This document shows positions 1 through 24,793 of a stretch of DNA of 26,828 bases, one piece after another. This stretch comes from Selaginella moellendorffii (taxonomy: Eukaryota; Plantae; Lycopodiophyta). Where the stretch lies: contig NW_003314382.1 of NCBI RefSeq assembly GCF_000143415.4, forward strand, positions 432,438 through 459,265, given 5' to 3'. The notes below the pieces were generated by a model that saw only the letters and a program-made list of their open reading frames with translations, was not told the DNA's origin and did not search any database. The position numbers and the translations under genes are program-made. The stretch's first letter is position 1; each line of letters begins with the position of its first letter.

Positions 1-3000
1 GCATGGTCATTATTAGATCCCGCAGTTTCTCCCGTGTGATTAATGTGAATCTGTCTCTTTTGACCAACTTGCGACCGCAGGCTTTGGAGGGTGCAGTGAC
101 ATTCGAGGACGAGCCACGCTCATGGGAGAAAAGGACACCGTTCAGATCAAAAACGATACAGTACTTTCGCCGTGACTCTGAAATGAAATGCGTCAGCATA
201 AAAAATGGTACAAGTCAATTTTACCATCTACAATATTAGCGAATGGTGCTCCCGATGGTCGTTCAGAGGGTTTTGGTCGAGGAAACGTGAAGGGCGGAAA
301 TACTCTCCTCTGCAATGTGGGGTCAATCGCATCCGATGGCGTGTGGGCACATGCCATTTCAGCTGTAGACTCTGGTACAACTGGCTCAACAGTGGCATGG
401 GGTGGTTCCGATGGCGTGTGATCACACGCCATTTCAGCTGGTGCCTCCGTTGGCAAAGTGGACATGACCGAACAGGCAGCAGGGGCGGTGTAGGGAGGTT
501 CCAACGGCGCGTAGTCAGACGATTGGGCACACGTTGGAAATGAGGATACGACCGGCTCGGCGGTTGGGGCGGCCTCATGCGGGTCCAATGGCGCCTGGTC
601 ACCGTCAGTTGGATACGTGGACAAGATTGACTCAGTGGTATGGGCAGCATCAAGTGGAGCGTGGTCAGCTTGCTTGGCGTTGATATGGATAGTAGCCTCC
701 ACCAGCTCTGATGACTCTTGCAGGCAAGTAGAGTCCACTGGCGGATCCATATGCATGTCCAAATATCTCCCTTTGATTGAGATGGTATCCTCCCGTGCTA
801 CTAAAAACAAACTCATTAGCACATTGAATCGACTATACTGTATTTACCATCAACTGCTATTGAGGAACTAGGACCGATATCACTTGGGCGCACTGCTGAT
901 TCTGAAGGATTGGACATACGTTTCGACCCTTGCTTGGCACTATCCTTCCTCGACACTAAAGGCTAGAGTTTGTATCTTAATTCAACTGAATAATCTCTAC
1001 TTACCATTTCTTCTGCGACCTACATGGACAATGTTAGAAATGGTAAAAGGTTAGGAATGGATGTACTATTATTTACCTGATGGTTTGTCTTGTATGACCT
1101 TCCTCCGCTGCTCTTTGGCCACCTCAAGCTGGCCATCATCGTCATCATCGTCATCGTCGTTATTGTGATCGTCACCATTGTGAGGACCATCCAAGTCCTC
1201 TTCGTCCTCCTCTTCTTCGTCCTCCTCTTCTTCGTCCTCCTCTTCGTCCTTCTGCTCTTCCTGCTCATTATCTTTCTCTGGCTCCTCATCCCCCTCTTGC
1301 ATTTCTTCCATAGGCTGCTCAGGCTGGATTGCTTGTTTTTCCAGGACCATCTTGGAAAAATCATCTGGCCGAGTCTCCATCTCAAAATACAAGACATCCA
1401 TAGCCTGTTTTAGTGCGTGACCTAGGACCGTATCCTCACCCGACTGTCTTAACATGGTTTCTGCACGTTCTTGCACCCTTCGAAGACGACGAGATGAGAA
1501 AAACGTGGCCCTGACTTGAAAAGCATCCCTCATCCATTGTACCTCTCCATTGAGATTGGGGAAGGGGAGTCCGCCATAGGAATCTGAGTCAGAAGGTGGT
1601 GACTGGCTCCTTTCACTCAGCCCTTGATCTGCAATGAATGGCATGAGCACACACGCCATAACCGCGAGGCATTACCTATCATCTTTTCGTTGCCCTTCTT
1701 CCTTTTCGAATCAAACGCCTCTGATCCCGACGACTGTCCAACGTGCTTTCGCTTTTTATGACCACTGTCAGTTTGAGCTTGGCTGGTGCTTGCCTGTTTT
1801 GCCTTTGAAGAAGTGTCTCCTGCAAGGAATGGCATGAGACCACACGCCATTGCAAATATAATTTGTACCTCCTTTTTTCCTATTGCTTGTCTGTTTGTCC
1901 TTCTTCGACGCGCCACCAGTGCGCTTTTCAGTCCTCGTGTCTGAATATTCACAACGATCTATAATCAAAATGGCGTGAGGCCTCACGTGACCTTACCTTG
2001 TGCAGGTTGTGACCTCGGCCTAACATCAGTAGCTGTTAACGCCGTTTCAGCATCTGGGGGTGGCCACGCTCCTGCATACAGAGCTTGTGAGATAACATTT
2101 AAACTTAAAGTGCGTACTCACCAGGTTCGTAGAGAAGATACTGTTTTTCTTTGGCAACTGTAATTATATGCTCCATTGAAGTCACCTCTTCAATGGAGTT
2201 TGTCACCGCAACACACGGGACACCCTTGAGTAGTGCGGCTCGAAAGAATAGTCCGCCGCAGTTGTACTCGACAACGCATTTGCCCTTGGAGTCACCCGCT
2301 ATTGCGTTGAAGACCCAGTTGAGCATTTCCCATGCTGCACCTGGAGCTTTCTTTGGATTCGAAAGCTCCATAGCCGTCTTCAGTTCCTCAGGCACGGGTA
2401 AATTGACCTCCCTCAGATCAATTCGATCGGCTTTGTTGAACGAAGCTGGGAAGTCACTCCAGTCCCACTCTGCTGCAGGACCAATAACAAGGGCGAGTGT
2501 GAAGATGCGGACATTCGTCGGTATCTTCTTCTTAGCCATTATCCCATGGATCTCCCGCATCTCCTTGCCTTTCAACCGAGCCTTCACCTCGTTCAAGGCC
2601 TTCCAGAACTTGTGATAGGATTCGGAGTCGTAGATCATATAGTGGACTGAAGATTCCACCTCCGCAAGTCCCACCATTAAGTCAATGATGGAGCTGACTT
2701 CGTCTGCATGAGTGATCTCCTCGTTTGTGAAGTCCATCACACAAAAGATGTTCTTGACCTGCTCATCTCCGCGGGAAACGATGCTCCTCCACCTTTGATC
2801 CTCATCCGAATTCACGTATACCCGGTAAGGTTCTTGATAGGCCTCTGCTGCGGGGTCGAGCTGTTTCTGAAGCCGGCGGTCGACATCCCTCTTAATGAAA
2901 TTTGGATACTGATCCAACTTCTCAGCTTTACTTTTCGTGGCATCCCGCAGCAGATCGATGAACTTGGGGGCCCCCTTCACGTACTCGTCGATGTCTTCAT

Positions 3001-4905
3001 TTGACAAGTCCAGCTCTTCCATCATCTCTTGCGTGGTGTCGATGCTCACCCTCGCCACGGCCACTTGCTCGAAGATCCAATCCTTCAATAGCGCACGAGC
3101 TCTCAGAGTCGTGCACAAGTCCTCGTATGTCACAATATGGCCGGGAGTCATTTTGGTCTTGTTGAAGACTACCTCACCAAGTAGAAGAGCATTAGCCACT
3201 GTCAGAAGGTCGTCGTCGTCTAGAGACCGCGAGAAACGCAAGGCGTTGAGCTTCAAATCATTGGGCTTCCGGCCGTCCTCCACACCCATTGAGTTTAGCA
3301 ACTCCCCGTCATGGTACCTCCTTAGCACATCTACCCATTTGTCAAAAACAACTTTTGTTGCGAGTAGAATGTTATGGATGCTGAGTGTGTCATTGACCCC
3401 CAGTGTTTTCGAGAGAAGACTCGAGAATTCCTGCAATGGAAATGGCGTGAGGCCACATGCTATGCCACATGCAACGAGGCTTACCTGCCAGGCGCTAGTT
3501 GCTAGTGCACGTCCTTGTCCTGGTTTTTGTGGCTTCTTCAGTTGAACCCAGAGCTTCCGTGTTCGTGCCAATGTCTCGTGCAGACCCGATTTGTAGCACG
3601 TTTCTTGCTTGACATTCTGCGCGTGGGAGATGTATATGATAGGTCGGAGGGGCGAGTTGCCTTTTATCAGGCGGACAACTCTTGTCTTGAAGACTTTCTT
3701 CACCTCCTCGCCCACCATAATATCCACAACTATCTGTTGCATCGCCAAGCTAGAATGCTGCCCGGAGACGGCATAGAACCGGATGTTCTGATCGTCCAAC
3801 ACCTTCCTATTGATCAAGTCTGGAAACCTCGTCTCGCCCTTCATTGTTCGGTAGTAGGGGATCACGTCTGCGATGTCGGGTGTTACTGGACTTGCCAGCA
3901 TCTTCTGCTTCAGTTTCTCCACCCACTCATCAGATACTAGCCTGTGGTTGTATTTGCTTTGGATCTCGATACGGCTCACGTCGATTGTATATACTTTGTT
4001 GGAATAGTAACAAGTACTATTATCTGCGACGATTTTTGCTGCCTCTTCTTGCTCTTTCTGCTCTTTGCGGCTCTTCTTTTTGGTGGGTGTAGTGTTCGAA
4101 CCCGAGGCAATGGCATCACCGAGTAGCTTCTTTTTTGGAGCAGCAGAGTCGGACGTCGGCTTGAGCTTGACCACCCTTTTCTGCTTCGGGGTAGTTTCCA
4201 GATCGACCCCCTTCCCCTTCGCTTCGCAAACTGGAGGCACTCTCAACGGCTCAATGTTGGAATATAGTTTTTGAACATCGCCGTAGGTGAGGTCCGTGGA
4301 TTCCATGTGATCTTCATAGACCCGCAGCGTCTTTGAAATTGTGGGCGTCCTGGACAACCTCTCCCTAGCTCCCTCTAGGAATTCCTCATAGCCGCTGCCC
4401 CCCTCCGGGAAGCCGCTAGGATGTGCAAGGTGGATCTTGAAGGCGGACGCTGTCTCTACCACAAGTGCCAGTCCATATTCTTGCATGGAACTGCATGGAG
4501 TGTCTGTCACTTGGATGAGGATCCCCATGCATTCTTTTCTCCCACCATCTGTGTTGTACAGCATCAGATCCTCGCCTTCCATCCCGAAAGTCCAACTGGT
4601 GAGCTCCTCCCCCTTCTCTGCATCCACATTGACAGTGGCTGGAAGAAGAACGCAATTCCTCGCCTGTTCAAAAATGCACAACAATTAGAGCTGACAGATG
4701 AAAAGCTAGCAGCTGGAAATAACGTGAGGCCACACGCCATTCACCACTGCATCAGATGTCTTGAGGCTGCATCCTAAGATGGCGTGAGGCTACACGCCAT
4801 CTGTAACCGGACTGCACTCGAGAGCCCAATCGGTGCATGTCAATGTTGCTACTGAATGGCATGTGGCCTCATGCCATTTTCTACTTGGTCTAAAAGACTT
4901 ACCAT
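1..4905 (-). CDS. Multi-exon gene, >1400 aa, 3' end off-window: ParB/Srx-like domain, degenerate N4C/N6A MTase-like domain, low-complexity/acidic linker, HAD (FCP1/NIF-like) domain
   Basis: Reconstructed exons (minus strand): 4903-4905 (ATG), 3485-4663, 2122-3430, 1997-2071, 1869-1940, 1676-1819, 1077-1628, 1005-1019, 848-955, 225-800, <1-177. All introns are GT-AG (239, 54, 50, 56, 49, 47, 57, 49, 47, 47 nt). The frame stays open throughout and links the provided ORFs 2105..4684, 1617..1952, 1069..1659 and 193..822. Motifs: NHRLVSDEWVEKL...FYAVSGQHSSLA...SHAQN (ParB-like); GKCVVEYNCGGLFFRAALLKGVPCVAV (MTase motif I-like); KYCIVFDLNGVL (HAD motif I). Confidence 0.75.
330..680 (-). repeat. Degenerate intragenic tandem repeats (about 66-93 bp) encoding Pro/Thr-rich peptide repeats
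   Basis: Peptide units DHAPLD / DQAPLD / DYAPLE / EMACDHTPSE / EMACAHTPSD. The last two are 75 bp apart and each contains the 22-bp palindrome. Confidence 0.75.
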
Positions 4906-5113
4906 TTGAAGCCGAATGGAGGCCGTGACAATCGAGGCCGGACTCGCTGGCGAATGTGCACTGTGTGTGCAGTGGATCGTAGCAGCAAGGCTACTCTGCC
5001 ACTTACAGTTGGAGAGTGGTGCTGAAATCTCCCGGGACGCCAAGTGGGCTGCGTGTGGGTGGTGGAGTGGGTGGCGGAGTTGGCGGCGAAGTTACAAACT
5101 GGGTGTGTCTTGA

Positions 5114-5341
5114 AGTGGACGCCGATGCACACGAGCGCGATGCGAGCGCGAGTGTGATGCAAGCGCGAGTGGACGCCGATGCACACGAGCGCGATGCGAG
5201 CGCGAGTGTGATGCAAGCGCGAGTGGACGCCGATGCACACGAGAAACCTGTAGAGAAGTGAGCGTGATCGCGAGTGGGAGCGCGATGCGAGCGGGAGCGC
5301 GAGTGTGATGCGAGCGCGAGCGCGAGTGTGCGAGCGCGAGT
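5114..5341. repeat. 54-bp tandem repeat (about 2.4 copies) followed by a GCGAGC-rich tract; likely 5' UTR region of the minus-strand gene
   Basis: AGTGGACGCCGATGCACACGAG... recurs at 5114, 5168 and 5222. Very CpG-rich. Confidence 0.85.
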
Positions 5342-5405
5342 ACAAAGCAAAATGCAAAACCTAACCTCACACGCGCGAAATGTCACAACGGTTGGTAATC
5401 CCGCC

Positions 5406-5538
5406 ACGTCATCATTCCTCGGACTTGGGCGCCACCATTAATTTCTGGATTGCCGCGCGCATGCAAGCACGCAAAATCCAAAAGAAATCCGCAACGTCAT
5501 CATTCCTCGGACTGCATGCACGCGAAATCCAAAAGAAA
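5406..5538. promoter_or_regulatory. Duplicated motifs upstream of the minus-strand gene (candidate promoter elements)
   Basis: ACGTCATCATTCCTCGGACT at 5406 and 5494 contains a TGACGT bZIP-type core on the minus strand. GCACGCRAAATCCAAAAGAAA occurs twice. Function is inferred from position only. Confidence 0.35.
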
Positions 5539-5686
5539 GATCATGATTGGGATATCATTTAATACCCTCGCTATATTTATACCATGCATGATTGGATATT
5601 CCAAAGCATCTTGTATTTCCAAAAATGGCAGATGTTCAGCTAAATAAAGAAATTCTATCTGTTTCTATTTTTCTCTCAAATCAATA

Positions 5687-7055
5687 TTATAGCGTGTGGG
5701 CTCATGCAATTTTGAACCAAAGAAACCCAAAAAACGTTGGACCCAAAATATTTTGAAAAAACCCAAAAAACCCTAAACATTTTAAACCCAAAAATCCAGG
5801 CGTCCTGTGGCGTTATTCCTTGAATGGCGTGTGGGCGCATGCCATTTTCAGGGCCAAATGCTGAATGGAGAAAAATTCCCTTTCAGTGCAAATGCTGCAA
5901 GAGGCAGATGCCGAGCACAAAGGACTGTAACTACCTCACATGACACAGATAAACTTTTCTCTATTTGGCAAAGATAAACTTTATAGCGTGTGGGCTTATG
6001 CAATTTTGAACCCAAAAAATGCACCAAAAAATTCTCGGCGTCATCTGGCATTATCTCTTGAATGGCGTGGGGCCGCATGCCATTTTCAGGGGCACATAGG
6101 AGTATATTCCTAGGATATTCTGACACGCGCGAGATTTTTTTGAGTTTTCTGGAGATCCAACCGTTAGATCGCAACTAGATTTTACAGAATGGTATACAAT
6201 GTCTTTCTTGATGACCCTGCAAAGAAGCATCTCAATCGGACACCACATGAGACCACACGAGCCTTACAATGTTTCAGGGGCATTTGCCATAGATCCGACC
6301 GTTATTTTGCTCCAAGATTTCACAGTTTGGTGTGCATTGACCTTTCCATCGAAACTGCAAAGGGACATCACAATCAGATGCGGGATCACAAGAAACTAAC
6401 TTCACTAACTCTGGTTTCACCAAGATCTACGTAAGGAGTTATGAAATGAAAGGACCCTCTCTATTGAAATGTGTTTATGGTCCTAGGGGCATTGTGACAT
6501 ATCAAAGGATTTTGCATCAAGTTCTGTATTTGCATGTTTATCAAGCTACTGAATTGCTAAACCCTAAACCCTAAACCCTAAACCCTAAACATGTGGCAAA
6601 TGCTGCGTGAAGAAAGATGCCCTTTCTGGGCAAATGCTGTAAGAGGCAGATGCCGAGCAGATGTATCTTAGGCTAGCGAAGGGGACGAACGAAAGCTAGC
6701 TATAAACATGACGGGATGCAAATAGATTACTAGGCTGGTCCTACGAAAATCAAAAACCATAATTGAAAACATTGAAAATGCAAAAAGAAAGGTTTATAAT
6801 ATTTTTGAATTTTAGGCAACCAAAGGAATGTAAGTAGGGCATGTGTTTGTAAGTTTAAAAATGCCTCAACCACTTAAATTCCCAAGTAAATAAAGCTGTT
6901 TCTATTTTTGGTACAGGTAAACTTTATAGCGTGTGGGCTCATGCAATTTTGAACCCAAAAATGCACCAAAAAATGCTCGACTAGCATTATTCTTTGAATG
7001 GCGTGTGGCCTTATGTCGAGCATTATTCTTTGAATGGCGTGTGGCCTTATATTGC
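5687..7055. repeat. Three copies of a two-palindrome module in the intergenic region
   Basis: TTATAGCGTGTGGGCTYATGCAATTTTGAACC-(A-rich)-TTGAATGGCGTG... at about 5687-5853, 5981-6093 and 6924-7020. The third is followed by a 36-bp tandem duplication. GCAAATGCTGYAAGAGGCAGATGCCGAGCA occurs at about 5889 and 6630. Confidence 0.85.
6557..6590 (+). repeat. Interstitial plant telomere-like repeat (CCCTAAA)4
   Basis: CTAAA CCCTAAA CCCTAAA CCCTAAA CCCTAAA C. Confidence 0.9.
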
Positions 7056-7481
7056 CATAAATGGACGTACACACACAGCGTAATTATTCCTTTACACGGC
7101 GAATAATCTTGGCGCGGATCGCTGACATGGCATGGCAAAGTTCGAATCACTGACATGGCACAGCTGGATCGAGGCAAGGACATGATGTGACAAAGTTCAA
7201 CCTCCGACAGCAAAGTCTAGAAGCTACTCAGTTTGAAATTTGTCAGAGGAATCATAAGATCTGGTTTGTCAGAGGATTTGATGTGACGTTCAAGCGTGTG
7301 TTATTTTTGAATTCTCGAACTCATTCCTAGGTCTATCATTTTTGTGCGCCGTGTTCTTGGTTCCGCTGAGCGCAGTGAGCGCTGCTTGTGTAAGCGGCGT
7401 TGTGGGCTGTGGTTTATGCGTCTACGAGCGGTTGCGGCATTGCGGCCATTGCGAGCGGCAGTTTATGCGAGTGGCAGTTTG

Positions 7482-7551
7482 TGCGAGCGGCGCTACGAGC
7501 AGTTGCGGCGTTGCGAGTGGCGCTACGAGTAGTTGCGATGTTGCGAGCGGC
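7482..7551. repeat. 30-bp CpG-rich tandem repeat (about 2.3 copies); likely 5' UTR of the transposase gene
   Basis: TGCGAGYGGCGCTACGAGYAGTTGCG.. at 7482, 7512 and 7542. Confidence 0.75.
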
Positions 7552-7781
7552 ACTGTCTTTGGTGTGGCTACCGCTTCCTCTTGATATTCGGCACTTGTGC
7601 TTCCTGGTATGTTCACCATGGAATGGCTTAGGACCACATTTAGAAATGGCATGAGGCCACATGCCATCTTGGGCCCTTGCAATTTCATGGCTAGCGTATT
7701 GTCATGTATGTTTTTACTTGCCTGCAGCTGTGTGTATATCAAGATGGCATGAGGCCTCCCTGCAGCTGTGTGTATACCAAA

Positions 7782-8009
7782 ATGGCATGAGGCCTCATGC
7801 CATCTTTGGCCCCTGCTAGCCTTTTGCCATATTCCTTATGCCTTGCTGCAATTGTATATATTTTTGTATGGGTGACTAGTCACGCACACAAAAATATATA
7901 CAGTTGCAGTAAGGCAAAAGGAATATAGCAACAGGCTAGCAGGGGCCAAAGATAGCGTGAGGCCTCATCCCATTAGTGGTACCACTAATGGCATGAGGGC
8001 TCATGCCAA
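7782..8009. repeat. Two overlapping spacerless inverted repeats (192 bp and 58 bp)
   Basis: 7782-7973 folds about GTGACT|AGTCAC (centre 7877/7878). 7952-8009 folds about GGT|ACC (centre 7980/7981). Both are capped by 22-bp palindromes. Confidence 0.92.
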
Positions 8010-8161
8010 TTTTGTGAATGCGAAATTTCACGTGGGTGTCAATAGCATGTTTGAATAATGGCATGTGGCCTCATGCTATTGAGGTTGTTTGGTATGTTAT
8101 GATTTAGGCCATTCTCCAATCATTTTTTGTATGGTCTTAACTTCTTTTCTGCACTTTCAGA

Positions 8162-11100
8162 ATGGCCTTCAGGGTTGGGGAAAAGGTTTACATTTTGAAT
8201 GGTGGGAAGAGAGTTGCAAAAGGGACCCTTGTGTCTATGGATCGGAACTTTGTTATACACTGTCAAAGGCAAGGCAATGCTGCTGTATCAGTAGAGACTG
8301 TCTTCGATGGGAATGTGGTCGCTATTGAACGAGGAGAGATGGTCGTCGGGGTAAATGTTGTTGTTGCCTTGAAAAATCTTCAAAAGAAAGCAGATGTTGG
8401 GGACAGCGCAAGTGCGACGCATGTTCCCTCTGTGGATCTTAAGAACCGTGCTACATGGATTCAGGCAAAAGTGTTTCTAAACAACCCCGAGGGGGAGGTG
8501 GTAGCTGAGGGCTTAGCCACAGTTGTCGATCCAAGAGATGCGGTTGCTAATCAAGAATTGGGCTGGGATGATATTGGAGTTGCGATTTTAGAGGTTGTTG
8601 ACACAGAAGAAAACAGTCTGACTATTGGAAGCATTGTGCGGTGGAAATTGAGGCACTTAGTGTTTGAGAATGTGAAGGATTCACAATCAAACACCACTAC
8701 AACTGATGACAGAACATCTCTTCATGGGAAAAGAAAGTACACCTTCCTAAAGCGCAGCCAAAGGGATCTGAGCAACGAACCGAAAAGGCAGAAAATGGCG
8801 ATGGAGGTTCGAATGGTCTCGACAGTTGCTTGTTGCAAGAGGAGGTGCTGTCAACATGCTGATTGGGATGCTATTGAAGAGGAGAGAGCAAGATACAAGA
8901 CATTGTCCTGGAAGGCAGCTCGCAATTTTGTGTATGAGGCATTACGGTCATCTGTTGATGCTTCAGAACATCAGGTGGGGGGCATGGTCTTCCAGAGGGG
9001 TTTGGTCTGCATGAAGGCATGGAGAATCATTTATGGAGTCCCTCGAACCACATTCTACAGAATCAAAACTGAGTTCGAGGAACAAAGGGTTCAACAGGCA
9101 GTCCATGGGAACGACGGTACGCACAAAACCAGGGGTCATGTTGTATATGGAGAGGCAATCTTCAAGAGGTTTGTCGAGACATGTAGCGAGCAGCAACCAC
9201 ATAAAACCCGCCTCTTGGAAGATGGAACACGAGACACCCAACGAGTTCTCCCTTCCATGTATACCAAGGGGGCCATATTGGAAGATGTGAATCGGGAACT
9301 CCAGAGTAATGGCTACAGGAAGCTGAGCCAATCTAGATTTAGTAGATTGTGGAGCAACAGGTTCAGGGATGTGAGTATAGGAAAGTACTCCAGCTTTTCA
9401 AAGTGTGACGAGTGCACTGCTATCAAAATGGCTTTGTCGAAGAATTCTTGCAGCGCTCAAGAGCGAGAGACGTTGGTTAGAAGGCGGCTCGACCACAACA
9501 TCGAGCAGAGAAGCTGCAGGACTGCATATTATCATAACAGGATTCTCTCCATGGAGAGACCTGACTCTTACCTCTGCATCATCCACGACAAAATGGACCA
9601 GAAAAAGACGTGCTTACCTCGACTCAATCCTGCCCCCAAGGCAATCTCTTCATCCATGCAGCTGCCTGTGTCTCTGTTTGGCATAATCGCTCATGGGCAT
9701 GGTGCCCAGAACTATGGGAACTTCTTTGTACCTCTATGGGGTGGCAGGGGTGCAAACATGATGATTGCGTCCCTAGCAAAACACTTAAGGTCTCTGCAAA
9801 GTGCGCAGACTGAGCTGAACGGCCAACCCTTGCATAAGGCCCTTGTCGATCGAACCCCATACAGGGTTCAGCTGGAGGAGGAGCAAAGGCTTGCAGTATC
9901 GCGTGGGGCCCCATGCCATCCCAGTGAATATGTTGGCCGTCAGATTGTAGGGTTATCACGTGAGGCCTCATGCCATTCCGACGAGGCTGGTCGCCCGGTG
10001 AATGCACAGCCTCATCCAAACGAAGCAGAATCTCAAGGAAGTTCTTGCGGCCGATGTGGCCTTCCACCCCATCTTCTGCTCCAAACAGACAATGCTGGCA
10101 GTGAGAACAAAAACATGTACGTCTTCGCGTACTTGGCGATGCTTGTTGCCAAAGGCATATTTGAAACGGTTACACTTGGCTTTCTCATGGTTGGGCACAC
10201 TCATGAAGACGTCGATGCCATGTTCAGTCACCTGGCAGAGTCCCTCCGGCGATCCAATGTCCTCACCCTCCCACAACTCTACGATGAATTCCAAAATTGC
10301 ATCAAAGGCACTGTTGAAGCTGCACTTCTGACAGAGGTTCCAGACTTTAAGGGGTTTGTAAGAGGCTACATCAGGGATGGATCCGAAACGCTGATTGGCC
10401 ACTCCAAGCCTCTTCAGTTTCATTTCAGCATGTGTGACGGTGCTCCAGTGATGAGGTACAAGATGAGAGAATGGGACACAGTGTGGCTGCCAGTGGACGG
10501 CATTGAACTCTTCAAGAGAGATCCCATAACTGGGGAACCTATGATTCCTCAGGGTTCCCCACGGCCGATGCACCCGGATGGACTCAAAGACCAGGAAAGT
10601 ATAGTGGCCGGGATTAGACAGCATATTGCCTTCTGGAAGAGGGGGTTGGTGTTTGGTGGAGAATCCTATTTTCAGAGGTGCAAGCCTTTGCTCGAATACT
10701 GGGAGAAGATTATATCTGCTATCCAAAATGGGCCGGTTGTATATGAAGAATTGGAAGAGTCCTTTTGGCCAGAACCCAGAGCACCAGATAGTAGCGGAAC
10801 AATGTCCTCTGGAAATGCAGTGACAGATAACGATGTTGAGGATCACTATTGTGGGCCGAGGAACAAGAAGCCGGATTCAGCATTCAATCCAGTACAGGTC
10901 TGCAAAGGAATGGTCGTGCTTGTCAGACCCAGTAATAAAAAACAAATGATATGGGTGGGGCGCTGCATCACTGATGCAGAGGAGGACGCGGAAACTAACT
11001 CCTTCAATGTAACTGTGGAGTGGTTCAAGCCAAGTTCCGGATATACGAAGGATTGCCTAGAAAAGAGATGGGTGCTGAATCCAAGGGATCCCAGCATGAG

Positions 11101-11297
11101 CATATCGGTGGATAATGTTGTGCATGGTTGGATGCGGAAGCAGAGTGCCACCATCACCTTGCCAGACCATGCAAGAGATGCAGCAAGAGCATTCATAACT
11201 CGGGTTCAAGGTGAGATTCATTAATATTCCTTTACAAAGTTTCTAATGTATTTTATTTCAAGGTGAACAATCCGAATCTGAATCAGAGGAGGCTTGA
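8162..11297 (+). CDS. Sola1-like (DUF7869-type) DDD transposase with N-terminal tandem Tnp1/En-Spm-like SH3 domains and a C-terminal BAH/Tudor-like domain, about 1027 aa
   Basis: 1020-aa ORF with CCKRRC..C and KCDEC cysteine clusters, IIHDKMDQKK, LLLQTDNAGSENKN and FLMVGHTHEDVDAMFS. These motifs are typical of this transposase group. A splice acceptor (..CTTTCAG, 8160) lies just before the ATG. A probable last intron at 11211-11262 (52 nt) adds GEQSESESEEA* ending at 11297. Confidence 0.8.
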
Positions 11298-11512
11298 TAT
11301 AGTGTGTGAGGTAAAACAAAGATGATGTGACATATGCATTTACCAATCACACGTGCATAAATCTAATAATATGGCGTGTGGCCCATATTAATGGCACATA
11401 AACCCATATTGTGGGCTTACGTGCTTTATGTACCATCATTCCCTTGCAGCGTGTGTGTTGGTTTCCTTTTATAACACAACGAACTCCATATTTTAGGGTG
11501 AAGAGCGTTCTC

Positions 11513-11770: not shown

Positions 11771-12706
11771 GCTTATAATGGCGTGTGCCCTCATGCCATT
11801 TACTTGATCACCAAATACTTTTTTCCCTTTGCACTAGTATATCTTAATACCGGTCTGAGAAATAGAATGGCATGTGCCCTCAGGCCTTTTACTAAATCAC
11901 CTTTGAAAGAAATGCAAGCCTCTATGTCGTAAAAAAAAGGTACTAGAGAAATTCCTTAATAATATGAATGTTATTTAGTTTCATGAAAATACACTAAGGG
12001 TCAAATGAGTTAAATGACTTCTCCAGACTAGCAATGCCTCTTGCTACACCTTCACAATTAGATTCGTTAGAAAAAGATAACATTGAATAATATCTAAATG
12101 TTCTCACCATTAAGTTATATGTCTGGCTAATAGGAATGATGTTCATCTTGGAAAGCTCACCACACGCTCAATGAACAAACAAATAGTGTGTGCGCGCATG
12201 CCATCGCTCTTCTTTAGCTTCAGATTCGGCTTGTTCACCTTGACAATGAGATTTATTATACAACTAGATGGACTCAGTCTGGACATAAGGTCACCGCGCT
12301 AGTCACCATGCCCCAGATATGTCTAGCCCCTGGACAAAAAACATATAATTTCACGTCATTTTCAAATACTTGAAAATTTGTACCTAGTCCCATTTTACTG
12401 AATAAATCCCACTTTAACGAAATAGAGCTTACTACAAGGAAATATAAACCACATTATAGTGGTAGGATATGCTAGAGCATTTTTATTAATAGTGACAGTG
12501 ATCTCTATATTTTCGAATGGGTAATAAAGATTAAGAGTGTAAATTGTGGAAGTGAAGGTACTTATATGTTTTAATATTTTAAAGTTCATCAAAACCTTCA
12601 TTTCTTCAATTTAAATTTCTTATATAAAACTTTTAGTTGATTGCATTAACTTACATTGACTTATGTTAGATTGAGCTCAACTTAATTTTGAACCATCCCC
12701 CCCCCC

Positions 12707-12921
12707 TGTTATGATCCGGCGCAAAAAGACAGAGATCTAGTCGCCCTATACTATGCTATGCCACCTCTTGAGGTTCCTCACCACCCAACCACCCCCGAGC
12801 TACCTCAAAAGCTCCACTGCGCCGCTGTTCCACTGTAGTCCCTTACCCTAACATGCCTTAATATACCCTTGAGCCTCCCTTTGACCGATGTTGACCACGT
12901 AGTCAAAGCTGGCGCCTAACA
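12707..12921 (-). repeat. 3' LTR of the outer Gypsy element (215 bp)
   Basis: TGTTATGATCCGG...CCTAACA; matches 24794-25008. Confidence 0.95.
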
Positions 12922-12934
12922 ATTCTTCCCCCCC
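12922..12934 (-). other. Polypurine tract of the outer Gypsy element
   Basis: GGGGGGGAAGAAT on the minus strand, abutting the 3' LTR. Confidence 0.9.
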
Positions 12935-12995
12935 AACAAAGTCCTTGTCCCAAGGACGAGTTGTACCGGTGATGACCCTTTCTGGGGAACCCTGC

Positions 12996-13672
12996 TCAAG
13001 CTCCTGGTCCATCTTCCATAGCCGTGTACATCAAGGAGGCATTGGGCCCGTCACTCCAAGATAGTACACCTTTCAACTGGCTGACATAAAATACCGGATG
13101 AATTTTCACCCCAGTTGGCAGCCGCACCTGATAAGCCGCTTTACCAATGCGCTCCAGCACTTCATATGGACCAGCATATCGATGACTCTTCCCTGTCCGT
13201 AAAGGCACCAAGGTGTTCCGCCGCTCACTTGACGGAAAGATCACTCGCACAAAGACGAGATCACCCACTTTATATTCCCGGAATTGGCGATGCTCATTAG
13301 CAAACTTCTCCGCTTTATCCTGAGCTGCTTGCAAATTCCATTTGCACACCACCAAAATCTCATCAAGTTCTGTGGCCAAATCAGTCGCCCCGGAATCAAG
13401 CTTATCTTGAATGTCCTTACTCAAATGCAAACCCAACTCCACCGCTGTTCGAGGATGCATTCCAAACATGGCAAAATAAGGACTTAGCTTGGTTCCACTG
13501 TGTTGGCTATTGTTGTAAGCAAACTGCACCAACGGAAGATATAGATCCCACTGTCCTTGCCTTTGACCAATGCTACAACGTAGCATATCCTCCACCACCT
13601 GATTCACGTGCTCGGTTTGCCCATCCGTCTGAGGATGATCTCCACTCGAGAGTTTCAAAGTCACTTGCATAG
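12996..13672 (-). pseudogene. Integrase C-terminal half (core E motif and GPY/F module) of the outer element
   Basis: LSSGDHPQTDGQTEHVNQVVEDMLR, VQFAYNNS, YAGPYEVLERIGKAAYQVRLP, HPVFYVSQLK. No intact chromodomain seen. Confidence 0.92.
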
Positions 13673-15383
13673 TGTGAGACACAAAATCCCTAAGCCCCAA
13701 AGTGGAGCCGGAAGGGCGCCACATGGTAGTTGCCAAAGCGAGAGCCAAACGAGCGTAACACGTTTGGACCAAAAGCTCCGACTTGAAAAGTCAAGAGCGG
13801 GAGTGGAACTCCCAACGAAGTGCTCGAGGAACGAGCACGAAGCGAGCAAAAGGCAAGGCTCCAAAAAGGGACCCAAAAGGACCAACACATGACACGTGGG
13901 AGTGTCCGAGATGGACTCGAGTTGGAGTCCGAAGTGGAGTCCGAGATGGACCCGAGTTGGAGTCCGAAGTGGAGTCCGAGATGGACCCGAGTTGGAGTCC
14001 GAAGTGGAGTCCGAAGTGGAGTCCGAGGTGGACCCGAGATGGACCCGAGTTGGAGTCCGAAGTGGAGTCCGAGATGGACCCGAGATGGAGTCCGAGATGG
14101 AGTCCGAGATGGAGTCCAAGATGGAGTCCGAGATGGACCCGAGATGGAGTTCGAGATGGAGTCCGAGATGGACCCGAGATGGAGTCCGAGATGGAGTCCG
14201 AGATGGAGTCCGAAGTCGAGACCGAGACCGGGACCGAGACCGAGACTGAGACCGAGATCGGGACCGAGACCGAGACCGAGGCCGAGGCCGAGGCCGAGAC
14301 TGAGCCCGAGCCCGAGTCCGAGTCCGAATCCGAGTCCGAGTCCGAGTCCGAGTCCGAGTCCGAGTCCGAGTCCGAGTCCGGAGCCTGAGAGGGTGAAAGC
14401 CCAAAGCGTTCGTCTCCCAAACCCTAGGGGGTTTGGTGAGCTCCGAAAGTATAGTAGGGGGAGGACTGCAGTGGAGCCAGTTTGGCCAGGAAAGGCCAGT
14501 TTGGCCCAGGAAGGCCGGACCCAGTGTTGGGTGATGAGCTGCCCACTGGGAAGTCCAAGATTAGAGTGAACACAGACCGACAAGCAGGGTAGCTTGGTGA
14601 AGTGTTCAAGAGCCGGCTCTAGTTCCCCCGGGAGATCGACTGGCCGATGCTCCCAGTCCAAGTGTGGGTGGCACTACCTACTTGGATACCTGGTGTGGCT
14701 CAACGAAACCCTCTCTAAGCCCATGGCTAGAGCACCCAAGGGCAGAAGGCGAGGAGAGTACCCAGGTGGCTCGCGTAAGGCCACGGTGTTCCGAAATGTT
14801 GTCCCAAAGGCCCAGACTGTGGAAAGGAAGAGGAGCAGTCCTCTGGGGTAGTGACCAAGGACACAGTCGTGTGGTGAGGAAGTCCCAGAGGACCGTGGGA
14901 CTTAGTGGTCGGGCCTGTGGGTCTCGATCCAGTGGCAGTGTTGGCAAACACGGCCAGGGGCAGAAAGGGACTTAGTGGGGACTGACAGAGGGATATTGGG
15001 GAAGGCTATTCCCCTTGTCGGTGGGCATCCTAAGGATGCTAAGGAGTGGATCTGAGATGACCACTCACGGATGGTTTGCTTAGTCTTGGAGAGCCAAGAC
15101 GGTGATGCAAGTGGTATTGGACTACCAGTGTGGCAAAGGTGATTGGGCATGGCCTTAGCGTAACGGGCTGCTATGTCGGTGGTACCTTTGAGTGTCGATC
15201 ATGGGATCGGACACGTGGTGCACTTGGACCAAGTGCAAATGTTGAGTGGCATGGATGCCATTCTCGGGGCTAGCAAGTCCCAAGTCCTGGATTGGACTTA
15301 TGGAGGTTGTGAATGAGACTCTTCCAAGTGGTCAGAGGTGTGGTTAAGTGACTAAAGTAGAATGGAAAATTTAGTCCCTTACA
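13673..15383 (+). repeat. 5' LTR of the nested element (1711 bp)
   Basis: TGTGAGACAC...GTCCCTTACA; near-identical to 19484-21101. Confidence 0.95.
13904..14380. repeat. Compound minisatellite/microsatellite in the LTR (GGAGTCCGAGAT / GGACCCGAGAT 11-12-mers grading into CCGAGA/CCGAGG/CCGAGT hexamers)
   Basis: Read directly from the sequence; explains the stop-free low-complexity ORFs in this interval. Confidence 0.95.
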
Positions 15384-15386
15384 ATT

Positions 15387-15398
15387 TGGTATCGGAGC
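15387..15398 (+). other. Primer-binding site (tRNA-iMet-like) of the nested element
   Basis: TGGTATCGGAGC, 3 nt after the LTR; one mismatch to canonical TGGTATCAGAGC. Confidence 0.9.
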
Positions 15399-18300
15399 TG
15401 TTCCTTAGTCCGACTTTTATTGGTGCTCAAGTATATCACCACTGGTGTTGGCAACGGAAGGTCCGAGAAGTGGGCTTATCCTTGAGGAGTAGCAGGTCGG
15501 GAAGATATGGCTCTCCATTACAGTTCATGTGTGAACTTGTAGACAAGATGGTGGATAGAAAAGGGCCAATAATGGAACGACTTTGGGATCTTGGGAACAG
15601 TATATGGTTTTCCTCAAAGAGTTGAGGATGTGATCCAGATGAGCATTTGACTTAGCAAACTGGCTAATGTAGTTGTGGTAAACAACTACAGTTGGGATCA
15701 CGGGAAAGATAAAGACTCCAAAGCAATAAAGGAGTCACAAGATTTTCCTCATATAGTTGAGGTTGGTGCTCATGAATGTGAGACCAGAAGTAATGACCGT
15801 GGGAGGTCAAATACGGAAGAGGACTCAAGTCCTTGAAATGGTAGCCGGGGCTACCTCTAATAAATGCCGGAACAACCCAAGGAGTTGGGGGTGTATTAAG
15901 CGGATGAGTTGGTGTTCTCATCACATGGACAAGTAGTCCTAAGGGGCAAAGGTTGCCCCCAGAGAACAAAATCAAGTGTCGGAGTAACACTTGTGAAAAT
16001 AGTCCTTTTGAGTAGGACAGGAATGCAAGAAGTGTATTCCAATGAGGTAGTGCCTCACAAGTGGGACCTTATGGGTCTGTGGATTAACCAAGTCCAAAAC
16101 TGCTGAATGACTCAAGTAGAGTCAACGGATGGTCCTAAAAGGACTGATGGAAGCATTTGGACTGAGGTATGTTGTACCCCACAAAGGATGGGGGGGGATC
16201 ATAGGATCCAAGGATGAGAACAAAGGGTATCTCATCGATGGCAAAATGTGCCATGCTAAAGTTATGGGAAAGGTGTTCCCAGAAGAAAACAACTTTGACA
16301 TAAAGTTGTGTGTGACCTCTATGGTGCAGTGCTAACGGATGGTTGGCATGAGAAAGAGCGGTGTTGGTCTTGGCAAAGACTTAGACACGAAGGGGAAATA
16401 TCATAGAGGTAGACTCGTGGAGCTGATGGTGTGGAGACACCAAATGTGCCAAGGTGTGATACCTTGAGGCTATGTTGGTGGGTTCATGAGAACCCCTTGC
16501 CAAAGGAATCCCAATGGAAATGGGAATAGCATAGCCTAAGCTGCAGAGCATGCAGTTGGAGTATGGTGACCCAGATAATGATGGAGGTGTGAAAGCACCA
16601 AGCAATGAGTTGTAGGACTTGACAACTATGAGGCAACTAAGCAAGAGATGCAAAATAACTGGTTAAACGGGTAGAAGGTAGCTACCCAAGACTTCTTAAT
16701 AGCATAGGGAAGTTGGATATACCCTTACGGGGGATAAGTTGCTTGTGTTGCGATATAGTAAGTCAATGTCATAAAAGGAAATACTCATTGTCAAGAAAGC
16801 CATCATTGGGACACCCGAACACTCTAGAACACTAGAAGGTGGTGTTTGATGTCGCGAGGGCAATGGATAAAGCCCAAGGGACTAAGTCCCTAGCGAATGA
16901 TGAATAGAAGGTGCTATCCAAATGTCCAAGGTTGCGGAGACAGGAGAGGACTGTCTACCCGAGTTGGACAAAGCCAAAAATGAAATTTTGGCAAGGCTAG
17001 TGATGGGCATGTAAAGGCCCATAAGCAACAATGTAATCCCAGTGTGTGGGATTATAAGGTGAGCATACCCGGATTGAGGAACCACTCCCTAGGCTATTGG
17101 GTAGGTTCATCCCTAAGAATACTTGCTAAAGCATGATAGAAAGTGCAAAGCTATCCTCCTGGTCTGGAGGAGAATGACCAAAGGAAAGGTGTGAAGCCAA
17201 AAAGCAAGAAGTAAGGGGATAAAACTGAACCGTAGGAATTAAAGGGCATAACCAAGGTTGGTTATGCCAGCTGGGAGTGGAGAATCAAGTGGGGGCTTGA
17301 GGGTGTTGCCGCTAGCAACCGTGATGCCATGGAGAGTCTAAAATATGGAATTGTCCATGTTAGACTATGTGGCATTTGGAAGGCTTGCAAAAAGGGAGGC
17401 CTTAGCAAGCTGAGGGACAAAGTTCCTTCAAGGTTCCCAAAGACGATTCTAGGTAGCTTAGTACCTAGAAAGGCCAAGTGTAAATGGTTTATGGAACGCG
17501 CGAAATCAGAGTGGCGCAGCAGAAGCGTGGTCTTGAAGCTTGCCATGAGGCAAGGCTATCAAGGTTAGGGAAGTAGTTCCCAAGTGTTCAAGGAGAGGGC
17601 TTTGAACGAAAGTCGATGGTCAAGGACTTTCACGCTTATGCAGGAACCATGTTACAGTGGTCGGAGGACTTGCCAAGCGAGATTGGCACGTCGGGGGAAC
17701 AAATACCCTAGTTGAAGGTGATAACTTCAAAAAGGGTGGGCCATGGGGCCGAGCATGGAGGAGTCCATGCATGATCACAGACATGTCAAGTGAGAGGACT
17801 TGGCAGTGTGGAGGAACTAGGTTCCTAAGCTGTGATCTGTAGCACGCTTTAAAAATAAGTTGGTGCACCGGCGTGGGGAGTCACGCCAGGCATCTTGTGT
17901 GATGCCGTCTGTAGATGCATATACGGAGGTTGGGTTCGAGTCCCAACCCTCTAGTGCTTGGGTTCGAGTCCCAAATCACTAGGGCGTGGTGATGGTTTGG
18001 AATATGAGGACACTCATATTTCGGTGGTCATGGACTCTCAGTGGGGAGACTGGTTTGGGCACACCGCCAAGCGAGGGATGCCTCGGAGTCGTGATGCACG
18101 GTTAGATTGCTTAGTGTGAAAGCTCAGCATATCTAACTTGAACGCTTTGGTGCAAGTGGCACCAAGGTCGTGGTGAGTGAGATGGGGACACCTAATCTCA
18201 GTTGCTATGAACCCTTGGCCGTAAAGGCTGGCTTGGGTGCACCGCCAAGTGTGGGGGATGCCCCCGGGGTTATAGTCAACAACTTGGAGGTCTAGAAGAC

Positions 18301-19470
18301 CAAGTACCTCTTGGCAACTCTGTTAAGGTGCCAGGGTGAGATCACTAGGTGATCTTATGGCCAGATAAGGACAAGGTCCTTGGTTGGCTAAGGAATGAAG
18401 TTCTTAGTTCAAAATGTTGAAATTGAACTGTTTAAGGTGGTGTGGCTTGGTCGTGATGACCAAGTGGGAAGAGCACCTAAGGGAAATAAACTATGTCCGT
18501 GCGATGGCATAGTGAGTCCGAGGAAAGTAGTCTCTATAAAAGACCCATGGGAGGGTCACGAAGTTGGGCCGTGGATAGAGCCTATAGCAGAAGATGCTAA
18601 AGAGACGTACTAGGGGTGAACATCCTCCGGACTTGGCAAAGAAGAGTCTTTGCTATGGAACCGAAACAATACCTCAAGGAGGGAGGTAGAGATTCGATGT
18701 TGCTTGGTGCAACAATCAACGGATAGGAGCAAAAGATGAGTGGCCAAGATAGGGCCGTGGAATCCCTTGGAAGGAATCCAAGTGACAAAGTTAGGCGAGG
18801 AACACTAATGTGTTGGACGCTAACAAGTTGCGGAAAAGGAAGTGTGTTTCCAAGGAGGGATTCCGAAATGCTCCGATTTGGCGAAAGTGGAAGCTCCAAG
18901 GGAGGGAGCGGTAAGGTAGCCAAATGATAGGGCCATGAACAGCCCTAGCACAAAGTATGATAACTGGAACTTTGGCACGAAATAAAAGAGAGGATGATGG
19001 TGCCCTCGAGTAGAGAACTTCCTAGGATGGGAAGTGGAGTTGCACAAAAGGTGCAAGGCAAGGTGTCAGAGACACCTAGGAAATTGACTCCAAGAAGTCA
19101 AAATTCAAAATTCCAAAGTGCAAAGGTTATATCGATGGAAATTGAGACTACTCGAGAAGGAGTAGTGGGATTGACTTAGAGAAGGGTCTCTAAGAGGTTT
19201 AGCGAGAACTAAACCAATAAAAGGAGAGAACCACTATATGTGGTCCAATCAATCTCTAAGTTGGAAAGACTACCCTCCTTAGAGGATATGCAAAAGGCAT
19301 GGTGAGCCTTCAATGTCCAACCATTGACGAATATGGAGAAGGCATGGTGAGCCTTCAATGTCACACCATTGACAAATATTGGCTACGCGCCAAGGATGGA
19401 AATGGTAACACATGCGGGTGTTACTTTATAAAATGGTTCACCGTTCGATGAGGACATCGAACTTCGTCTA
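15399..19470 (+). pseudogene. Non-coding internal region, possibly a heavily eroded pol remnant
   Basis: Only short ORFs. Faint similarity to the Gypsy pre-RT region (EVYSNEVVPHKWDL at about 16030) and a Gypsy-like tail before the PPT. Confidence 0.4.
19294..19374. repeat. Short direct duplication near the 3' end of the internal region
   Basis: AAGGCATGGTGAGCCTTCAATGTC..ACCATTGAC occurs twice. Confidence 0.85.
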
Positions 19471-19483
19471 TGGGTGGTGGAGT
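19471..19483 (+). other. Polypurine tract of the nested element
   Basis: TGGGTGGTGGAGT immediately before the 3' LTR. Confidence 0.75.
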
Positions 19484-24100: not shown

Positions 24101-24769
24101 CAAGTGTTGTCGCATGCTCTCACTATGTAGGCCATCAATGAAGTAGGACTTGTTTTGATCTGGATCCTTCGTTAGAACACGACTAATCAAGCGAGTAAGC
24201 TTCTCAATATAGTCCCCGAGCGTCATTTTCCCTTGCTGAAAATGTCGAAGTTCCGTACGAGCATTCTCCACATCGTAATGAGGGGCAAAACATAAACGGA
24301 AAGTAGCCTTAAATTCATCCATGGTAGACACTGGTGGTTTCTTATCCGCAACACGGGACTCCTCAAGCCAATTCCACCATCGAAGACCCACATCACGCAA
24401 AACCATCGGAATAGCCACTAAAGCCTCTGCATCTGGAGTTCCTCTAGTAGCCAAGAACTTCTTCACATTGGCTAGCCAAGCGAGACACTCGTCCACACCA
24501 CTATCACTGGAAAAAGTTGGAATCTTGAGTCGATCTACCAAAGAAGGCTTACTTGGAGTGCTACCCCGTCCAGCCTCGAGTGCCTCAACACGCCCACGCA
24601 TGGTGTCCATCATGCCATGCATCTCGTCTTGCATCTCTTGCTGATTTTTATTAAGGGCTCACAGCTCATGAACCACATCTTGAATGGTCCAAATCTCCGC
24701 AGCTTCGTCGGCACCATCGTCGGCACCACCATCGACAATAGGATTCCAGCGTTTAGCTTGGTCGGCCAT
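21102..24769 (-). pseudogene. gag-pol of the outer Gypsy element (gag, CCHC knuckle, protease, RT, RNase H, integrase N-terminal part), with stops and frameshifts
   Basis: ATG at 24769. Motifs [69 protein letters not shown] (YLDD degenerated), VTCDANGYALGGVL, SMDFIT and IISDRDSKFTS. In-frame stops at e.g. 23459, 23051, 22347; frameshift near 22690. Confidence 0.95.
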
Positions 24770-24781
24770 CGCAACCAACTC

Positions 24782-24792
24782 CTCTGATACCA
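24782..24792 (-). other. Primer-binding site (tRNA-iMet) of the outer element
   Basis: TGGTATCAGAG on the minus strand, 1 nt from the 5' LTR. Confidence 0.93.
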
Positions 24793-24793
24793 A

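What the first reader, a model, noticed from the sequence alone, without database searches (positions are those of the whole stretch)
1629..4902. Palindromes sit inside tiny introns at a near-fixed position
Five of the ten predicted introns carry the 22-mer (4664-4902 has three copies; 3431-3484, 1941-1996, 1820-1868 and 1629-1675 have one each). In three of these 47-54 nt introns it fills almost half the intron and ends 9-11 nt before the exon (...GCCATT..TTGCAG). Either introns let the element place binding sites through a gene at no coding cost, or the palindrome units are Introner-like intron generators, or the hairpin regulates splicing.
Basis: partly seen in the sequence, partly recalled or inferred. 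Interest (0 to 1): 0.78.

Follow-up and report, generated by a model that had tools for sequence, protein, structure and literature searches.

The report
Transposon palindromes doubling as intron branch-points
A plant jumping gene is dotted with one 22-letter mirror-image DNA word, likely a docking site for a protein that it encodes; in three tiny predicted introns of that protein's own gene one arm of the word sits exactly where the splicing branch point is expected, which likely explains its fixed position and argues against these words creating new introns.

Summary
Observation confirmed: 7 copies of the 22-mer lie in 5 of 10 predicted introns, and three end 9, 9 and 11 nt before the exon. 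The gene is the accessory gene of a DUF7869 (Sola-like) DNA transposon, probably of a spikemoss. It has a ParB/Noc-fold domain and a likely degenerate methyltransferase-like domain. The motif is element-wide: 27 copies (7 intronic, 16 other non-coding, 4 coding in variable loops). New here: in the three fixed-position introns the motif's CTCAY arm is the only branch-point-like word at the right distance (A at -16, -16, -18). Motif-free introns carry theirs at -15 to -17. The Introner reading fails: intron 3431-3484 has the same position in relatives at about 25% identity, and the introns are not similar end to end. The arms do not covary (0 compensatory changes, 29 one-sided), which favours a protein-read DNA site over a selected hairpin. 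Splicing was not seen in RNA (almost no reads), and binding is untested. Precedents: VANC21 sites in VANDAL introns; ParB accessory genes of algal transposons. The scan noted the same element type in other plant genomes and intron palindromes in fungal transposons; the branch-point overlap was not found there or in print.

The parts
1..4905 (-). Accessory gene of the transposon. Predicted ATG at 4905-4903, 10 predicted GT-AG introns, about 1403 aa up to the window edge, 3' end outside the window
3485..4054 (-). ParB/Noc/sulfiredoxin-fold domain (conserved SGQHS motif) in exon 2
   Evidence: alignment of 12, model pLDDT 77, Foldseek best hit Noc 7ol9 E=9.9e-5, then ParB chains
2123..2830 (-). 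Likely degenerate N4/N6 amino-methyltransferase-like domain (lead only)
   Evidence: ESM Atlas 0.87-0.89 to PF01555 clusters; VIA Z 4.5-5.2 to MboIIA, N4CMT, CcrM on a low-confidence model, tied with unrelated folds; no Pfam or PDB sequence hit
4664..4902 (-). Intron 1 (239 nt, phase 0, directly after the ATG); three palindromes (4719-4740, 4779-4800, 4856-4877); own branch-point-like CTAAT at -22
3431..3484 (-). Intron 2 (54 nt, phase 0, in frame); palindrome 3442-3463 whose CTCAC arm puts A at -18; position shared with distant homologs
1941..1996 (-). Intron 4 (56 nt); palindrome 1970-1991 beside the donor, left arm eroded; separate TTGAT at -25
1820..1868 (-). Intron 5 (49 nt); palindrome 1829-1850 whose CTCAT arm puts A at -16; predicted hairpin z=-2.5
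1629..1675 (-). Intron 6 (47 nt); palindrome 1638-1659 whose CTCAT arm puts A at -16; 15 of 17 positions (-20..-4) identical to intron 5; predicted hairpin z=-1.7
178..2121 (-). Span holding the motif-free small introns 2072-2121, 1020-1076, 956-1004, 801-847 and 178-224; YTNAY A at -17, -15, none, -16, -16
336..432 (.). Two palindromes inside a coding exon (336-357, 411-432), in a 75-nt repeated Pro/Ala-rich stretch
5689..8079 (.). Array of 13 palindromes (PWM score at least 10) between the two divergent genes; six of them lie in a candidate 5'-UTR intron of the transposase (7607-8160, unverified)
8162..11298 (+). DUF7869 transposase gene (HDKMDQ, QTDN, GHTHEDVD motifs) with a predicted motif-free 52-nt intron 11211-11262 (CTAAT, A at -17)
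9898..9976 (.). Two palindromes in the transposase coding sequence, in the least conserved loop (aa 571-630, mean identity 0.07-0.09 to 14 homologs)
11778..12204 (.). Three palindromes downstream of the transposase; no copy scores 10 or more beyond 12204

Best explanation
The 22-mer is an element-wide two-armed DNA motif of a DUF7869 (Sola-like) transposon, likely bound by a dimer of the element's own ParB-fold accessory protein, and in three tiny predicted introns of that protein's gene its CTCAY arm likely also serves as the splicing branch point, which would pin it 9-11 nt before the exon. Shown: motif distribution, avoidance of conserved coding sequence, ParB fold, old position of intron 2, and coincidence of the arm with the branch-point distance of the motif-free introns. 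Inferred: that the introns are spliced; that the accessory protein rather than the transposase binds; that CTCAY is the branch point used. A 47-54 nt intron has little room for a 22-bp site beside donor, branch point and acceptor, so copies survive best where one arm replaces the branch point. The shared 3' ends of introns 5 and 6 likely come from duplication or conversion of pre-existing introns inside the element, not from insertion of new introns.
For: Branch-point match: A of CTCAY at -18, -16, -16 and no other YTNAY between -10 and -45 in those three introns. Motif-free small introns have YTNAY at -17, -15, -16, -16 and -17 (transposase) in 5 of 6; one of them (2072-2121) uses CTCAC itself. 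Random placement and orientation gives this in 3 or more of 4 introns with P=0.002-0.016. The plant branch-point consensus is CURAY (PMC12746065, passages); CTCAY matches 4 of 5. DNA site rather than hairpin: no covariation between arms (R6/Y17 p=0.64; W9/W14 paired in 8, mismatched in 14 of the 22 copies with A/T at both), 0 compensatory against 29 one-sided departures, and C5 kept (CA 26 arms vs TG 1 of 52), although CpG decay should give both alike. Coding avoidance: 0.55 vs 3.7-10.1 per kb; transposase copies in its most variable loop. Binder candidate: ParB/Noc fold. Precedents: VANC21 binds a motif in introns, intergenic and terminal regions of its own transposon (PMC5735166, passages); ParB accessory genes lie next to inverted-repeat arrays in red-algal Plavaka elements (10.1101/2025.02.11.637652, passages); ParB plus methyltransferase gene opposite the transposase in Sola1-1_Ec32 (PMC12477816, passages).
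Against: No spliced read was seen; the two raw RNA runs (about 12% of each read) had almost no reads on the gene, and the few in intron 1 were unspliced. The branch-point statistic is post hoc, rests on n=4, and the three cases are not independent (introns 5 and 6 share 15 of 17 nt); without the orientation term P is 0.02-0.14. CTCAY is not the CURAY optimum, and intron 956-1004 has no YTNAY at all. The fourth small motif intron and the three copies in intron 1 do not overlap a branch point. The arm statistics use copies picked by a consensus drawn from them and related by duplication. Differences to close copies are neutral-like (8 synonymous, 21 non-synonymous; 0.22 synonymous expected), so current selection on this copy is not shown. 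No DNA-reading helix-turn-helix was identified. The transposase is an equally available binder.
Confidence: 0.6

Rival explanations
1. The palindrome folds in the pre-mRNA into a hairpin that hides the branch point and 3' splice site, and this is selected to damp or switch splicing of the accessory gene.
For: Introns 1820-1868 and 1629-1675 fold better than shuffles (z=-2.5 and -1.7), with stems that extend past the 22-mer onto the acceptor; predicted branch A unpaired probability 0.00 in both. Their 6/17 pair is G-T on the sense strand, which can pair in RNA.
Against: Introns 3431-3484 and 1941-1996 fold no better than shuffles (z=+0.45, -0.22). Motif-free intron 2072-2121 also has its branch A paired (0.01). 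No covariation or compensatory change between arms, and the three fixed-position copies carry a T/T mismatch at 9/14. Most copies are outside introns.
Confidence: 0.13
2. Same DNA-site and branch-point logic, but the reader is the DUF7869 transposase (internal or subterminal-like sites for synapsis or self-regulation), not the accessory protein.
For: Copies run through the whole element, including downstream of the transposase. A 2026 preprint reports transposases as sequence-specific regulators of their own copies (10.64898/2026.08.24.746577, abstract only).
Against: Two-fold symmetric sites of this size fit ParB/Noc-type dimers (established knowledge, recalled). Copies are densest around the divergent promoters and first introns, not at the one element end in view.
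Confidence: 0.15
3. The palindrome plus pyrimidine-CAG tail is an Introner-like unit that inserts into exons and creates new introns.
For: Introns 5 and 6 share 15 of 17 nt before the acceptor. Several non-intronic copies are followed by TT(T)CAG (336, 411, 5824, 6062), so the unit carries branch-point- and acceptor-like words. Introns 4-6 lie in a linker where no homolog aligns, so their age is untested.
Against: Intron 3431-3484 is old. Of 14 representative homologs at 22-31% identity, 3 span the site without the 18 intron-encoded residues, 8 end at or soon after a (W/F)x-V at that point, 2 begin just after it, and 1 ends before it; a RefSeq spikemoss model reads WQ|EF exactly. The 5' parts of introns 2, 5 and 6 are unrelated (p=0.13-0.93), and junction repeats are only 2-5 nt of splice-site letters. 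Introner calls require similarity reaching both ends (PMC9860276, passages). The close copies laid keep the introns that they cover.
Confidence: 0.06
4. The motif is a functionless repeat spread by local duplication and conversion, kept in introns only because exons purge it.
For: Many copies lie in local repeats. Intron enrichment over other non-coding DNA is weak. Spacing is no more even than random (P=0.71).
Against: The flanks of most copies are unrelated while the 22-mer is kept, C5 is held against CpG decay, and copies appear in a coding loop of the transposase.
Confidence: 0.06

Closest known systems
Sola1-1_Ec32 of Ectocarpus (PMC12477816; outline and passages read; supplements not read)
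   Same: Transposase with a gene on the opposite strand encoding a ParB-like domain plus a predicted N4/N6 methyltransferase domain, proposed to bind and modify its own element.
   Different: Here a land plant; methyltransferase similarity is weak and its catalytic motifs look eroded by eye (motifs recalled). The word 'palindrom' does not occur in that paper's main text.
VANDAL21/VANC21 anti-silencing system of Arabidopsis (PMC5735166; passages read)
   Same: A transposon accessory protein whose motif accumulates in introns, intergenic and terminal non-coding regions of its own element, including introns of its own gene, and spreads by repeat formation.
   Different: Mutator-like element, 9-bp non-palindromic motif in same-orientation arrays, unrelated protein; binding shown there, untested here. 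The passages read mention no branch-point overlap.
Plavaka PAG3 of Bostrychia (10.1101/2025.02.11.637652; passages read)
   Same: ParB-like accessory protein with arrays of inverted repeats, proposed as its parS-like binding sites.
   Different: Plavaka superfamily, 2OG-oxygenase partner domain, arrays adjacent to the gene rather than inside its introns.
Introners (PMC9860276 and PMC12130899; passages read)
   Same: Short introns sharing sequence, with an internal inverted repeat.
   Different: No end-to-end similarity, no TSD, one intron position ancient, motif mostly outside introns. 'Selaginella' does not occur in either main text, and 'Sola' not in PMC12130899 (not searched in the other).
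Bacterial ParB-parS and Noc-NBS (structures hit; binding mode recalled)
   Same: Predicted fold of the N-terminal domain; two-fold symmetric sites.
   Different: 11-14% identity; CTP binding, clamp sliding and the DNA-reading domain are untested.

Membership tests
Sola superfamily | DDD-type transposase | tested here: met
   DUF7869 E=3.6e-42; acidic motifs HDKMDQ, QxDN, GHTHED(I/V)D kept in the window and in 14 of 15 homologs, the exception being a frameshifted 98% copy. Reading them as the Sola triad is recalled and follows earlier notes; no Sola reference sequence was compared.
Sola superfamily | 4-bp TSD and terminal inverted repeats (PMC10741241, passage) | not testable with these tools
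   The left end lies outside the window and no genome is held.
ParB-methyltransferase accessory gene (Sola1-1_Ec32 type) | Gene on the strand opposite the transposase | tested here: met
ParB-methyltransferase accessory gene (Sola1-1_Ec32 type) | ParB-like domain | tested here: met
   Foldseek Noc E=9.9e-5, ParB E=0.003, probability 1.0, TM about 0.4; Atlas lead
ParB-methyltransferase accessory gene (Sola1-1_Ec32 type) | N4/N6 methyltransferase domain with catalytic motifs | tested here: inconclusive
   Atlas 0.89, VIA Z up to 5.2 on a region of pLDDT under 50; no Pfam or PDB sequence hit
Introner | Intron-intron similarity reaching both splice boundaries in four or more introns | tested here: not met
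   5' parts unrelated; only the 3' parts of two or three introns alike
Introner | Recent gain: intron absent at the same position in relatives | tested here: not met
   Not met for 3431-3484; untestable for introns 4-6, where no homolog aligns
Introner | TSD or TIR at the intron ends (present in many, not all, families) | tested here: not met
   Junction repeats 2-5 nt, made of splice-site letters; the palindrome is internal
VANDAL/VANC | Mutator-like transposase and VANC domains (DUF1985, DUF287) | tested here: not met
   The transposase is DUF7869; no such Pfam hit in the accessory-gene frames scanned
VANDAL/VANC | Element-specific motif enriched in non-coding parts including the accessory gene's introns (works-like feature) | tested here: met
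   no copy scoring 10 or more in the 14.4 kb beyond position 12400
VANDAL/VANC | Accessory protein binds the motif and lifts silencing | not testable with these tools
   Needs EMSA, ChIP or DAP-seq and methylome data

The most novel reading that the evidence does not exclude
One sequence does two jobs on purpose: the ParB-type protein's DNA site is also the branch point (and a masking hairpin) of introns in its own gene. The site then cannot be lost without breaking the gene, and occupancy of the site or folding of the RNA would set the splicing of the binder's own mRNA: a self-regulating loop and a lock that couples binder and site during their co-evolution.
Probability: 0.15. Interest if true: 0.78.

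Novelty: new variant of a known kind. Interest (0 to 1): 0.47.

Why it matters
Transposons that store their own protein-binding motifs in introns are known (VANC21), and ParB-type accessory genes with inverted repeats are described in algae. This locus extends the design to a land-plant element and gives a concrete reason why sites sit at a fixed place in tiny introns: overlap with the branch point. If confirmed, it is a compact, easily tested case of one sequence read as a DNA site and as a splicing signal. It shows how a binder and its sites can be genetically locked together, and it warns that shared intron 3' ends with an internal palindrome can mimic Introners. It also offers a 22-bp candidate target for the untested claim that these ParB-domain proteins bind their own elements.

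Tried and rejected
No whole genome is held, so paralogous copies could not be compared. No RNA holder was listed for the gene. Word-based protein searches with the 859-aa frame found nothing at near or shorter lengths (longer lengths not searched). Scans of metagenome contigs with the motif and the protein, and of viral contigs with the alignment, gave no locus. From the 17 hits I dropped P0036, P0039 and P0051 as repeat-driven matches, leaving 14. Foldseek of the exon-3 model gave no hit at E 0.001 or better; a PDB sequence search gave none. Rfam gave only sub-threshold miRNA-hairpin matches to the long inverted repeat at 7781-7974. Even spacing of sites: not supported (P=0.71). Exon-exon homology around introns 4-6, which tandem duplication would predict: not detected (19 comparisons, best p=0.02). 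Purifying selection among close copies: not detected. PMC9803359 (passages) and PMC4738411 (passages) added nothing on this motif. Literature searches that found no description of a transposon palindrome overlapping a branch point, or of this element in Selaginella, judged from listings only. Supplements of PMC12477816 and of the Introner papers were not read and may list related families; preprint supplements are closed.
Full report
CONTEXT. The first 12.3 kb of the window is part of a eukaryotic DNA transposon. A 1027-aa frame at 8141-11224 (+) matches DUF7869 (E=3.6e-42). It has 34 homologs, most at 30-45% identity, and keeps three acidic motifs with them. A second gene runs the other way from an ATG at 4905 off the left edge. 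An LTR retrotransposon fills about 12707-25009. No genome is held. The best homolog of the second gene is a Selaginella moellendorffii protein at about 27% identity, and earlier notes on this genome name a spikemoss. The host is therefore probably Selaginella; I did not show this directly.

OBSERVATION. The five named segments are GT-AG introns on the minus strand with the stated copies. With five more introns (2072-2121, 1020-1076, 956-1004, 801-847, 178-224) they give one open frame of 1465 codons stop to stop. Retaining any of introns 3-10 shortens it; intron 2 (3431-3484) is in frame and stop-free. The motif ATGGCRTGWGNNCWCAYGCCAT has 24 matches at up to 3 mismatches against 0.02 expected. 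A weight matrix finds 27 copies at score 10 or more: 7 in these introns, 16 in other non-coding DNA, 2 in an exon of this gene, 2 in the transposase, and none beyond 12204. Densities are 10.1, 3.7 and 0.55 per kb for introns, other non-coding and coding DNA. Intron against exon is p=3e-5; intron against other non-coding is p=0.03, and p=0.12 for small introns alone. If a candidate 5'-UTR intron of the transposase (7607-8160) is counted, 13 of 22 non-coding copies are intronic (p=0.001), but that intron is unverified.

IS IT SPLICED? Not shown. Two raw RNA runs (about 12% of each read), one contig set of guessed RNA and one of unstated kind were laid on 1-6400. Of 198 and 124 RNA reads laid, nearly all fit only a 40-nt piece at 4970-5009 and run on into other sequence. 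Depth on the gene was about 1-1.6 at 4495-4922 in one run, unspliced, and near zero elsewhere. No joint matched a predicted intron. Contigs at about 99% identity kept the introns they covered. Their differences are neutral-like (8 synonymous, 21 non-synonymous; 32 of the 40 rows shown were classed, those inside the gene, and the tool withheld 6 more). The element looks silent in these samples, so the test is inconclusive. Support for splicing comes from the reading frame and, for intron 2, from homologs.

INTRON 2 IS OLD. The HMMER search gave 17 hits; 3 were dropped as repeat-driven. Of the 14 left, 3 span the site and lack the 18 residues that the intron would add. Eight end at or soon after a (W/F)x-V at that point, as frames reading into a phase-0 GT would. 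Two begin just after it, and one ends before it. A RefSeq spikemoss model reads WQ|EF, the same junction as here, while another model in the same cluster adds two residues there. Named spanning homologs come from Selaginella, Calypogeia and Riccia. So this intron position predates the present family, and its palindrome was gained in an existing intron (inference). The 5' parts of introns 2, 5 and 6 are unrelated and there are no TSDs, so the Introner criterion of end-to-end similarity (PMC9860276) is not met. Introns 4-6 lie in a linker without alignable homologs, so their age is open.

WHY THE POSITION IS FIXED. On the sense strand the three fixed-position copies all end in CTCAYGCCAT. The A of CTCAY lies at -18, -16 and -16 from the acceptor, and no other YTNAY lies between -10 and -45 in those introns. 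Five of the six motif-free small introns (including one in the transposase) have CTAAC, CTAAT, CTGAC or CTCAC with A at -15 to -17; one has none. The two motif-bearing introns whose copies lie elsewhere have a separate word at -22 and -25. The plant consensus is CURAY (PMC12746065). Random placement and orientation gives three or more of four such hits with P=0.002-0.016, or 0.02-0.14 if orientation is ignored. This is post hoc, and introns 5 and 6 share 15 of 17 nt before the acceptor, so they probably have one origin. I take it as a likely, not proven, explanation.

DNA SITE OR RNA HAIRPIN? Introns 5 and 6 fold better than shuffles (z=-2.5, -1.7) and bury the predicted branch A. Introns 2 and 4 do not (z=+0.45, -0.22), and a motif-free intron also buries its A. 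Across 26 copies the arms do not covary: 0 compensatory against 29 one-sided departures, and W9/W14 is mismatched more often than paired. C5 is kept (26 CA against 1 TG arm), although CpG decay should hit both strands alike (copies were chosen by their own consensus and are related, so this is suggestive). The two transposase copies sit in its least conserved loop. This is the pattern of a protein-read site with two half-sites.

THE LIKELY BINDER. The exon-2 domain folds like Noc and ParB (pLDDT 77; best E=9.9e-5). The end of exon 3 resembles N4/N6 methyltransferases only weakly (negative), and its catalytic motifs look eroded by eye against recalled motifs. ParB-family dimers read two-fold symmetric sites (recalled). 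I commit to the accessory protein as binder; the transposase is the main alternative.

COMPARISON AND NOVELTY. It works like VANC21/VANDAL21, where an accessory protein binds a motif in introns and other non-coding parts of its own element (PMC5735166), but it is not a member. Its layout matches Sola1-1_Ec32 (PMC12477816), and ParB genes with inverted-repeat arrays are reported in Plavaka elements. Earlier scan notes describe the same element type in other plant genomes and intron-borne palindromes in fungal and springtail transposons; these are unchecked leads. I found no report of the branch-point overlap (listings only).

VERDICT. Real feature, new variant of a known kind. Binding sites stored in introns: likely. 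Branch-point overlap: likely and apparently new. Introner: unlikely. Regulatory hairpin: possible for two introns. Interest 0.47.

Noticed in passing
window 178-2121 (-): Introns 3-10 are all phase 1 and the seven exons between them are multiples of 3 (75, 72, 144, 552, 15, 108, 576 nt), including a 15-nt micro-exon at 1005-1019. This is unlikely under usual phase frequencies (recalled) and suggests symmetric-exon expansion or tolerated skipping in the linker; exon-exon homology was not detected.
   Followed up: partly
window 4970-5009: A 40-nt piece in the gene's 5' leader is matched by hundreds of RNA reads that continue into other sequence on both sides. It looks like the 3' end of large-subunit rRNA (recalled; not among the Rfam matches).
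   Followed up: no
window 7781-7974: 194-nt inverted repeat (90% complementary, no spacer) with a palindrome copy at each end, inside the candidate 5'-UTR intron 7607-8160 of the transposase; only sub-threshold miRNA-hairpin matches. Possible small-RNA source.
   Followed up: partly
window 12219-12258: Inverted 40-nt copy (85%) of the transposase's last intron-exon junction at 11244-11282; possibly the remnant of a related element in the opposite orientation.
   Followed up: no
window 1-177 (-): The last exon in view begins with a 'CIVFDLNGVL' stretch like HAD/FCP1-type phosphatase motifs (recalled); no Pfam hit on 58 aa. It could be a third domain of the accessory protein.
   Followed up: partly
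window 225-800 (-): Exon built partly from 75-84 nt repeats; the two 3'-most units carry near-perfect palindromes in frame, and upstream units carry decayed ones. Indels seen in other copies here are 9 and 3 nt.
   Followed up: partly
window 12707-25009: Ty3/gypsy-like element (gag, zinc knuckle, protease; minus strand) with LTRs 92% alike, flanked by C runs, and a second long direct-repeat pair (from about 13673 and 19484, 98% alike) nested inside.
   Followed up: no
window 25480-26828: Abrupt drop in GC (0.29 in 25001-26000) with an intron-less 204-codon stop-to-stop frame at 25557-26171 (+), unlike the rest of the window; possibly foreign DNA or an assembly join.
   Followed up: no
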